Assembly (NCBI RefSeq): GCF_003334255.1
Contig: NZ_QOWU01000010.1
Origin: Escherichia coli
Lineage (GTDB): Bacteria; Pseudomonadota; Gammaproteobacteria; Enterobacterales; Enterobacteriaceae
Direction: 5' to 3' (one strand)
Length of the DNA stretch: 64,000 nucleotides
Positions 48,977 to 49,070 of this stretch are shown here, one piece after another (the stretch's first letter is position 1; each line of letters begins with the position of its first letter). The notes below the pieces were generated by a model. That model saw nothing but the letters and a program-made list of their open reading frames with translations, made no database searches and had not been told where the DNA came from. The position numbers and the translations under genes were made by a program.

Positions 48977-48992
48977 GATAAAACGTTTTATC
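48977..48992. promoter_or_regulatory. MalI operator box 1 (GATAAAACGTTTTATC) in malX-malI divergent region
   Basis: Perfect 16-bp palindrome with LacI-family AAACGTTT core. Confidence 0.65.
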
Positions 48993-49054
48993 AAATTTTA
49001 GTGAGGCATAAATCACATTACGCAACGATAATAGCGGGTATAAGATAAATAAAA

Positions 49055-49070
49055 GGTAAAACGTTTTATC
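49055..49070. promoter_or_regulatory. MalI operator box 2 (GGTAAAACGTTTTATC)
   Basis: Near-identical second copy 78 bp from box 1, immediately upstream of malI. Confidence 0.65.

What the first reader, a model, noticed from the sequence alone, without database searches (positions are those of the whole stretch)
48977..49070. Paired AAACGTTT-core palindromes in the malX-malI divergent region
GATAAAACGTTTTATC and GGTAAAACGTTTTATC are near-identical 16-bp palindromes 78 bp apart between malX and malI. They fit LacI-family operator geometry and are expected to be MalI binding sites controlling both transcripts. The PUR box at 10409..10425 shares the same AAACGTTT core.
Basis: partly seen in the sequence, partly recalled or inferred. 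Interest (0 to 1): 0.25.

Follow-up and report, generated by a model that had tools for sequence, protein, structure and literature searches.

The report
Known MalI operators at malX–malI

Summary
GATAAAACGTTTTATC (48977-48992, perfect palindrome) and GGTAAAACGTTTTATC (49055-49070, one base off) lie 78 bp apart, start to start. They sit in the 174-bp spacer between malX (- strand) and malI (+ strand) of the E. coli chromosome, and this spacer is identical to K-12 MG1655.

They are the known MalI operators. Sellars et al. 2017 (PMC5543585) state that MalI binds a 16-bp target at both promoters. Their oligo table labels GATAAAACGTTTTATC "a MalI DNA site", and a 20-copy array recruits MalI:mCherry in vivo.

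In 80 orthologous loci from more than a dozen enterobacterial genera, both sites are present and nearly invariant. They flank one conserved CRP site and two -10 elements. No copy with two or fewer mismatches occurs in about 540 kb of flanking DNA.

The geometry puts one operator over the malX -10 and spacer (-24..-9) and the other just downstream of the malI start (+3..+18). This matches my recollection of Lloyd et al. 2010, which I could not read here. In that account each operator represses its own promoter independently.

The shared AAACGTTT core with the purR boxes is real but generic to the LacI family.

Novelty: already known. Interest: low.

The parts
48977..48992 (.). O_X: the malX-proximal MalI operator, GATAAAACGTTTTATC, a perfect 16-bp palindrome. 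It lies at -24..-9 relative to the inferred malX transcript start.
   Evidence: Sequence. Named 'MalI DNA site' in oligos D71689/D71690 of PMC5543585. Present in 80/80 orthologous loci, with 12 of 16 positions invariant in the 78 loci tabulated; positions 7 and 15 vary.
49055..49070 (.). O_I: the malI-proximal MalI operator, GGTAAAACGTTTTATC, one base off the palindrome. It lies at +3..+18 relative to the inferred malI transcript start (centre +10.5).
   Evidence: Sequence. Present in 80/80 orthologous loci; most genera carry the perfect GATAAAACGTTTTATC here. [quoted passage not shown]
48999..49020 (.). Single shared CRP site, TAGTGAGGCATAAATCACATTA, centred at 49009.5. This is -41.5 for malX and -43.5 for malI.
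   Evidence: Best CRP-consensus match in the spacer. TTAGTG and ATCACA are conserved blocks in the 81-sequence alignment. TCACA sits at a fixed offset of 20 bp after O_X in 78/78 loci. malI and malX are listed as CRP targets recovered by genomic SELEX. The -41.5/-43.5 positions come from my memory of Lloyd 2008 and agree arithmetically with the sequence.
48975..48980 (-). malX -10 hexamer TATCTT (AAGATA on the + strand). Four of its bases (GATA, 48977-48980) are shared with O_X.
   Evidence: Invariant in 78/78 loci, including the two A's just outside the operator. It starts 29.5 bp from the CRP centre, as expected for a class II promoter. Its role as the -10 element is inferred, not tested here.
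49039..49046 (+). malI -10 region TATAAGAT, holding two overlapping candidate hexamers: TATAAG (49039-49044) and TAAGAT (49041-49046).
   Evidence: TATAA(A/G) is a conserved block in the alignment. TATAAG starts 29.5 bp from the CRP centre. TAAGAT would sit at -12..-7 of a start at 49053. Which hexamer is used was not determined here.
48968..48968 (-). Inferred malX transcript start, giving a 42-nt leader.
   Evidence: Back-calculated from the published positions as I recall them (-24..-9 and -41.5). The numbers are mutually consistent with the sequence. No genome-wide TSS record was found, probably because the promoter is repressed under laboratory conditions.
49053..49053 (+). Inferred malI transcript start (an A), giving a 48-nt leader.
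   Evidence: Back-calculated from the remembered +3..+18 and -43.5. The distance 49053-48968 = 85 equals 41.5+43.5. Not confirmed by the TSS datasets I could read.
49101..50129 (+). malI: LacI/GalR-family repressor, 342 aa, autoregulated through O_I.
   Evidence: NCBIfam NF007449 MalI, 669 bits against a cutoff of 310. RefSeq annotation. Protein identical to K-12 MalI. Leu59 aligns with the PurR hinge residue Leu54.
47334..48926 (-). malX: PTS maltose/glucose EIICB, 530 aa, first gene of the malXY operon repressed through O_X.
   Evidence: NCBIfam NF007509, 1119 bits. Annotation. Divergent from malI in 81/81 loci.
46152..47324 (-). malY: C-S lyase and MalT antagonist, second gene of the malXY operon.
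   Evidence: NCBIfam PatB-family C-S lyase, 377 bits. Annotation.

Best explanation
The two palindromes are the operators of the LacI/GalR-family repressor MalI, which is encoded immediately to their right.

The spacer holds two back-to-back sigma-70 promoters that share one central CRP site. One MalI dimer binds O_X (48977-48992). This site covers the malX -10 hexamer and spacer (-24..-9), so RNA polymerase cannot bind and malXY is shut off. A second dimer binds O_I (49055-49070). This site lies just downstream of the malI start (+3..+18, centre +10.5, like lacO1), so MalI limits its own synthesis. The two operators act separately, not through a DNA loop.

Shown here: the sites exist, they are far beyond chance, they are conserved with fixed geometry next to malI in about 80 species, and they are restricted to this spacer. 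Shown in the literature I could read: this 16-mer is the MalI DNA site and recruits MalI in vivo. Inferred, or recalled from Lloyd 2008/2010: the exact transcript starts, the steric mechanism at each promoter, and the independence of the two operators.
For: Sequence and statistics.

Locus identity. The spacer and MalI are identical to K-12 MG1655.

[quoted passage not shown] A 20-site array gives MalI:mCherry foci. Its supplement marks GATAAAACGTTTTATC as the MalI DNA site.

Comparative evidence: all 80 malI orthologue loci have a divergent malX and two sites, spaced 79 bp (75 loci) or 78 bp (5 Escherichia loci). The consensus is G-R-T-A-A-A-A-C|G-T-T-T-T-A-Y-C, with the core almost invariant while surrounding spacer columns vary freely. 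There are 160 matches with 2 or fewer mismatches inside the spacers and 0 in the rest of 541,682 bases. The spacer is at least 99% identical in 4997 of 5413 E. coli genomes.

Protein: MalI aligns end to end with PurR, and the hinge Leu is conserved. MalI covers LacI residues 2-325 of 360, so it has no tetramerisation helix.

Geometry: the operator-defined starts are 85 bp apart, which equals 41.5+43.5, the CRP positions I recall from Lloyd 2008.
Against: I could not read the primary mutational papers (Lloyd 2008, 2010) or the original Reidl/Boos papers. The positions -24..-9, +3..+18, -41.5 and -43.5, and the independence of the operators, therefore rest on my memory plus arithmetic consistency.

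No genome-wide TSS table I could search lists the two canonical starts. Kim 2012 lists only a 10-read start 306 nt upstream of malI.

The inferred malX start falls on a C, which is less usual, so it may be off by a base.

Shimada 2011 describes the two promoters as regulated by different CRP molecules, whereas I see one conserved CRP footprint.

No whole-genome scan for further MalI sites could be run.
Confidence: 0.95

Rival explanations
1. The two sites work as a pair. MalI bound at both forms a repression loop (lac- or gal-style) that encloses the CRP site and shuts both promoters together.
For: There are two near-identical operators at a strictly conserved distance (79 bp in 75 loci, 78 bp in 5). 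They flank the shared activator site. This is superficially like galOE/OI or lacO1/O3.
Against: A spacing of 78 or 79 bp is 7.43 or 7.52 helical turns, so the sites lie on opposite faces of the helix. MalI is 342 aa and ends where the LacI core ends, at LacI residue 325 of 360, so it lacks the tetramerisation helix. The fixed spacing is explained more simply by two promoters sharing one CRP site: both -10 elements start 29.5 bp from its centre. As I recall, Lloyd 2010 reported that each operator represses only its own promoter.
Confidence: 0.03
2. The palindromes are targets of another LacI-family protein that recognises the AAACGTTT core (PurR, Cra, RbsR or CytR). That would link malXY to purine or carbon-flux control.
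For: The AAACGTTT core is shared with the purR boxes in this window, with the Cra box TGAAACGTTTCA, and with the bifidobacterial RbsR2/3 motif TGATAAAACGTTTTATCA, which contains the same 16-mer.
Against: The flanking positions G1, T3, A14 and C16 are essentially invariant across genera. They differ from the purR O1 box seen here (AGGC...ACCT) and from the Cra flanks. The sites always accompany malI. Published work uses this 16-mer as a specific MalI target, and no MalI:mCherry foci appear without the array.
Confidence: 0.02
3. The palindromes are chance features of an AT-rich spacer, or they act at the RNA level as a hairpin in the malI leader.
For: O_I is transcribed (+3..+18) and forms a 7-bp AU-rich hairpin in the predicted fold.
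Against: The chance expectation is 0.07 matches per window against 4 observed. Conservation across about 80 species contrasts with a variable background. The leader fold is no better than shuffled sequence (z = 0.18, with 109 of 200 shuffles folding at least as well). O_X lies upstream of the malX start and is not in the malX mRNA.
Confidence: 0.005

Closest known systems
[quoted passage not shown] 2008, FEMS Microbiol Lett 288:250; used as 'MalO' by Sellars et al. 2017, PMC5543585)
   Same: This is the same object. The window spacer is base-for-base identical to K-12 MG1655, and the 16-mer equals the published MalI DNA site.
   Different: Nothing of substance differs. Added here: conservation of both sites in 80 enterobacterial species, and the 79-bp ancestral spacing against 78 bp in the E. 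coli clade.
PurR operators (PUR boxes), including the purR autoregulatory boxes in this same window (10409-10424 and 10321-10336)
   Same: Both are LacI-family 16-bp palindromes with the AAACGTTT core and a central CpG. The hinge-helix Leu is conserved (PurR Leu54 = MalI Leu59). Both include an autoregulatory site downstream of the regulator's own promoter.
   Different: The outer positions differ (AGGC...ACCT in purR O1 against GRTA...TAYC). PurR needs a corepressor, whereas MalI is presumed to be released by an unidentified inducer (from my own knowledge). The proteins are only 23% identical.
lac operator O1 with LacI
   Same: The repressor site is centred about +11 relative to the start (O_I centre +10.5). 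Both are dimer-on-palindrome sites with a central CG.
   Different: LacI is a tetramer that loops O1 to O2 or O3. MalI lacks the C-terminal tetramerisation helix, and its two operators are out of helical phase.
CytR/CRP-regulated promoters
   Same: MalI is a CytR/GalR/LacI homologue (NCBIfam CytR hit at 124 bits). O_X ends 6 bp from the edge of the CRP site.
   Different: CytR acts by contacting CRP, using weak half-sites. The MalI sites are strong full palindromes overlapping core promoter elements, and no MalI-CRP contact is known.
Bifidobacterium RbsR2/RbsR3 motif TGATAAAACGTTTTATCA (Khoroshkin et al. 2016, PMC4746261)
   Same: It contains the same 16-mer.
   Different: It is a predicted motif of distant LacI-family regulators of ribose and nucleoside genes in Actinobacteria. 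The match reflects a shared family recognition code, not a shared regulon.

Membership tests
LacI/GalR-family operator | A 14-18 bp inverted repeat with a central CpG step | tested here: met
   Both sites are 16-bp GRTAAAAC|GTTTTAYC with a central CG, which is invariant in 78/78 loci at both sites.
LacI/GalR-family operator | A cognate LacI-family repressor with an N-terminal HTH and a hinge-helix Leu that inserts at the central CpG | tested here: met
   The adjacent gene is MalI (NCBIfam 669 bits). It aligns from residue 8 with PurR, and Leu59 aligns with PurR Leu54. The intercalation role is taken from established PurR structures and was not tested for MalI.
LacI/GalR-family operator | The site overlaps or directly follows the core promoter of the regulated gene | tested here: inconclusive
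   O_X shares 4 bp with an invariant TATCTT hexamer. O_I begins 10 bp (11 bp in other genera) after a conserved TATAA(A/G). The transcript starts themselves were not confirmed by any dataset I could read.
MalI regulon (E. coli malXY and malI) | Direct binding of MalI to the 16-mer | not testable with these tools
   Taken from the literature. GATAAAACGTTTTATC is labelled the MalI DNA site, and a 20-copy array gives MalI:mCherry foci that are absent without the array.
MalI regulon (E. coli malXY and malI) | Co-occurrence of the sites with malI across genomes, and restriction to that locus | tested here: met
   80/80 orthologous loci carry both sites. There are 0 matches with 2 or fewer mismatches in about 540 kb of flanks and 0 elsewhere in the 64-kb window. 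Whole genomes were not scanned.
Looping repressor systems (lac, gal, deo type) | Operators in helical phase, and a repressor able to bridge two sites (a tetramer or a helper protein) | tested here: not met
   78/79 bp is 7.43/7.52 turns. MalI has no LacI-type C-terminal helix.
Class II CRP-dependent promoter pair sharing one CRP site | A CRP site centred near -41.5 of each divergent start | tested here: inconclusive
   There is one conserved CRP-like footprint, with both -10 candidates starting 29.5 bp from its centre. CRP SELEX lists malI and malX as targets. CRP dependence was not tested here, and Shimada 2011 speaks of different CRP molecules.

The most novel reading that the evidence does not exclude
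The ancestral and nearly universal architecture is a perfectly symmetric CRP-centred promoter pair with operators 79 bp apart. The E. coli clade lost one base between the malI -10 element and O_I. That deletion may have shifted the malI -10 and start register, producing the unusual CRP position of -43.5 and changing how tightly MalI autoregulates in E. coli compared with Citrobacter, Klebsiella or Enterobacter. A more speculative variant: the invariant 6-bp gap between O_X and the CRP site reflects a CytR-like MalI-CRP contact.
Probability: 0.1. Interest if true: 0.2.

Novelty: already known. Interest (0 to 1): 0.05.

Why it matters
It matters little as a discovery. These operators were defined genetically in E. 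coli K-12 around 2008-2010 and have since been used as a tool (MalO arrays for chromosome tagging). The check has three uses. It adds a phylogenetic footprint across about 80 species that independently supports the published promoter, CRP and operator map. And it shows that a shared AAACGTTT core with PurR boxes is a family trait, not evidence of cross-regulation.

Tried and rejected
(1) I tried to read the primary papers: Lloyd 2010 and 2008 by PubMed id and DOI, Reidl 1989 and Reidl & Boos 1991, and Boos & Shuman 1998 by PMC ids recalled from memory. None is held. Full-text searches for 'malX promoter' plus MalI and for MalI/malY/operator returned nothing.

(2) I tried to confirm the two transcript starts from genome-wide TSS supplements. 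ROSE and Cappable-seq had no entries in the text held. Romero 2014 gave one forward-strand site at 1699196 of unknown genome version and category, which I could not use. Kim 2012 confirmed the coordinate offset but lists only a 10-read start inside malX.

(3) The consensus sigma-70 promoter scan found nothing in the spacer. That is expected for activator-dependent or weak -35 promoters, so promoter elements were placed by conservation and geometry instead.

(4) The RNA-structure reading of O_I is rejected (z = 0.18), and no Rfam family lies in the spacer.

(5) The looping model is rejected on helical phase and protein length.

(6) A whole-genome motif scan of E. coli was not possible.

(7) My first motif filter required a central ACGT and wrongly suggested that 8 loci had one site. 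Relaxing it showed single central substitutions, such as AAATCGTTT and AAACGATTT, with both sites present.

Full report
OBSERVATION. The window carries GATAAAACGTTTTATC at 48977-48992 and GGTAAAACGTTTTATC at 49055-49070. The first is a perfect 16-bp palindrome. The second differs from it only at position 2, so one of its eight arm pairs is broken. The sites are 78 bp apart start to start, with 62 bp between them. A search for GRTAAAACGTTTTATC allowing 2 mismatches finds only these two places in 64 kb, against 0.07 expected from shuffles. The window has only two perfect 16-bp palindromes in total.

LOCUS. The region is 100% identical to many E. coli chromosomes and is present in 5417 of 5426 complete genomes. 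RefSeq annotates malY and malX on the - strand and malI on the + strand. I place malX at 47334-48926 (-), malY at 46152-47324 (-) and malI at 49101-50129 (+). NCBIfam confirms them: MalI 669 bits, MalX 1119 bits, and a PatB-type C-S lyase at 377 bits for MalY. The spacer is 174 bp (48927-49100). Both the spacer and the MalI protein are identical to K-12 MG1655, so K-12 literature positions transfer directly. MG1655 coordinate = 1748281 minus window coordinate.

WHAT IS KNOWN. The library holds Sellars et al. 2017 (PMC5543585, Busby laboratory). [quoted passage not shown] 2010 and 2008. Its oligonucleotide table marks GATAAAACGTTTTATC as "a MalI DNA site". An array of 20 such sites produces MalI:mCherry foci in vivo, and no foci appear without the array.

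The two primary papers, the original Reidl/Boos papers and the Boos & Shuman review are not held. From my own memory of the Lloyd 2010 abstract:
- The malX operator lies at -24..-9 and the malI operator at +3..+18.
- Each represses only its own promoter.
- One CRP site serves both promoters, at -41.5 for malX and -43.5 for malI.

These four remembered numbers can be checked against each other on the sequence. The operators then define starts at 48968 (-) and 49053 (+). Those starts are 85 bp apart, which equals 41.5+43.5. The midpoint so defined (49009.5) is exactly the centre of the best CRP-like 22-mer in the spacer, TAGTGAGGCATAAATCACATTA at 48999-49020. I regard the map as sound, but the transcript starts are marked as inferred.

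COMPARATIVE EVIDENCE. A peptide-pattern scan of one genome per species returned 80 malI orthologue loci at 69-100% protein identity. They come from Escherichia, Citrobacter, Salmonella enterica subsp. arizonae, Leclercia, Lelliottia, Enterobacter, Klebsiella, Raoultella, Kluyvera, Trabulsiella, Pseudocitrobacter, Pseudescherichia, Silvania, Huaxiibacter, Superficieibacter and others.
- All 80 have malX divergent from malI, with spacers of about 165-219 bp.
- All carry two 16-bp sites. Eight loci that first looked single-site have one central substitution, such as AAATCGTTT or AAACGATTT.
- The spacing is 79 bp in 75 loci and 78 bp in the five closest Escherichia loci. E. albertii has 79.
- The pooled pattern is G-R-T-A-A-A-A-C|G-T-T-T-T-A-Y-C. 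Positions 1, 3-6, 8-9, 11-14 and 16 are essentially invariant. Positions 2 and 15, which are mirror images, tolerate transitions.

In a MAFFT alignment of the spacers the background is highly variable. Five blocks stand out: O_X with its two preceding A's, TTAGTG...ATCACA, TATAA(A/G), O_I, and the malI ribosome-binding site. The TCACA half-site lies exactly 20 bp after O_X in 78/78 loci, so the 1-bp difference lies on the malI side, between TATAA and O_I.

The motif is restricted to the spacer. There are 160 matches with 2 or fewer mismatches inside spacers and none in the remaining part of 541,682 bases of flanks. Within E. coli the spacer is at least 99% identical in 4997 of 5413 genomes.

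ANATOMY AND MECHANISM. On the malX strand, the invariant AAGATA at 48975-48980 reads TATCTT. It is a plausible -10 hexamer at -12..-7 of the inferred start, and four of its bases belong to O_X. MalI on O_X would therefore occupy the -10 and spacer region and exclude RNA polymerase.

On the malI side, TATAAGAT (49039-49046) offers two overlapping hexamers. TATAAG starts 29.5 bp from the CRP centre, the mirror image of the malX hexamer. TAAGAT sits at -12..-7 of a start at 49053. O_I begins two bases after that start and is centred at +10.5, essentially where lacO1 sits. MalI there would block open-complex formation or escape and so autoregulate malI.

The consensus promoter scanner finds nothing in the spacer. 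That is unsurprising for CRP-dependent promoters without a good -35.

MalI aligns end to end with PurR, which is encoded in this same window. The hinge Leu is conserved (MalI Leu59 = PurR Leu54). In PurR that residue pries open the central CpG (established structural knowledge, not tested for MalI).

MalI covers LacI residues 2-325 of 360 and thus lacks the tetramerisation helix. The operators are 7.43 turns apart in E. coli and 7.52 turns elsewhere, so they lie on opposite faces of the helix. Both facts argue against a repression loop and for independent action. The fixed spacing is then explained by two promoters sharing one activator site. No MalI structure has been solved.

RIVALS.
- A loop model is disfavoured for the reasons above.
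- Use of the sites by another AAACGTTT-recognising family member is disfavoured. The outer positions are invariant and distinct from the purR O1 box and the Cra box, the sites always accompany malI, and the published MalO array is MalI-specific.
- An RNA-level role is rejected. The malI leader folds no better than shuffles (z = 0.18), and Rfam has nothing in the spacer.
- Chance is excluded.

THE PUR-BOX REMARK. purR is at 9339-10364 on the - strand. AGGCAAACGTTTACCT (10424-10409 on that strand) lies 45-60 nt upstream of its ATG. A second box, GAGCAAACGTTTCCAC (10336-10321), lies in codons 10-15. From memory, these correspond to the purR autoregulatory operators O1 and O2 of Rolfes & Zalkin. 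The shared core is real.

The same core also appears in the Cra box and in an scrAB promoter. The very same 16-mer is embedded in a predicted bifidobacterial RbsR motif. The core is therefore a family signature, and specificity lies in the flanks.

UNRESOLVED DETAILS. Genome-wide TSS tables that I could search do not list the canonical starts. Kim 2012 gives only a 10-read start at window 48795 (+), inside malX. Shimada 2011 says the two promoters use different CRP molecules, whereas I see one conserved footprint. A weak TGTCACA just after O_I (49071-49077; 9 mismatches to the 22-mer consensus) is conserved only in Escherichia and Citrobacter. I could not scan a whole genome for extra MalI sites.

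VERDICT. The feature is already known and experimentally characterised, so interest is low. The only mildly new points are the breadth of conservation and the E. coli-clade 1-bp deletion between the malI -10 element and O_I.

Noticed in passing
window 49044-49054 (compare L005, L007-L081): E. coli and its closest relatives have operators 78 bp apart; E. albertii and every other genus have 79 bp. The missing base lies between the conserved TATAA(A/G) and O_I, creating overlapping -10 candidates TATAAG/TAAGAT. This may relate to the unusual CRP position of -43.5 reported for malI in K-12 (position recalled from memory).
   Followed up: partly
window 10409-10424 and 10321-10336 (purR strand is -): Two PurR-type boxes flank the purR start codon. 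AGGCAAACGTTTACCT lies in the leader and GAGCAAACGTTTCCAC in codons 10-15, 88 bp apart. This matches my recollection of the purR autoregulatory operators O1 and O2.
   Followed up: partly
window 51102-51115 and 52150-52163: The perfect 14-bp palindrome ATTGGTTAACCAAT lies about 115 bp upstream of uidR. A one-mismatch copy, ATTGGTTAACTAAT, lies about 50 bp upstream of uidA. This is a second paired-operator arrangement, presumably for the TetR-family repressor UidR.
   Followed up: partly
window 10365-10755 (+): Full-length Rfam hit to the enterobacterial sRNA STnc550 (396 bits). It lies between purR and the downstream MFS transporter gene (10918-12087), on the strand opposite to purR, and overlaps the purR leader box in antisense.
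   Followed up: no
window 48795 (+), inside malX: The Kim et al. 2012 supplement assigns a weak (10-read) transcript start to malI, 306 nt upstream of its ATG. It is antisense within the malX coding sequence, and a transcript from it would read through both operators.
   Followed up: no
window 49071-49077: A CRP-like half-site, TGTCACA, lies immediately downstream of O_I. It is conserved only in Escherichia and Citrobacter. It may be why one paper (Shimada 2011) speaks of separate CRP molecules for malI and malXY.
   Followed up: no
window 45084-45099: The only other perfect 16-bp palindrome in the window, TCCTCAGCGCTGAGGA, lies near the 3' end of the add coding sequence.
   Followed up: no
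window 1492-1773: Two tandem tRNA genes lie on the - strand (1619-1692 and 1700-1773). An Rfam 'HPnc0260' antisense-RNA hit (1492-1654, +) overlaps one of them.
   Followed up: no
E. coli genome search: One of about 5400 E. coli matches to the malX-malI region lies on a record typed as a plasmid rather than a chromosome.
   Followed up: no
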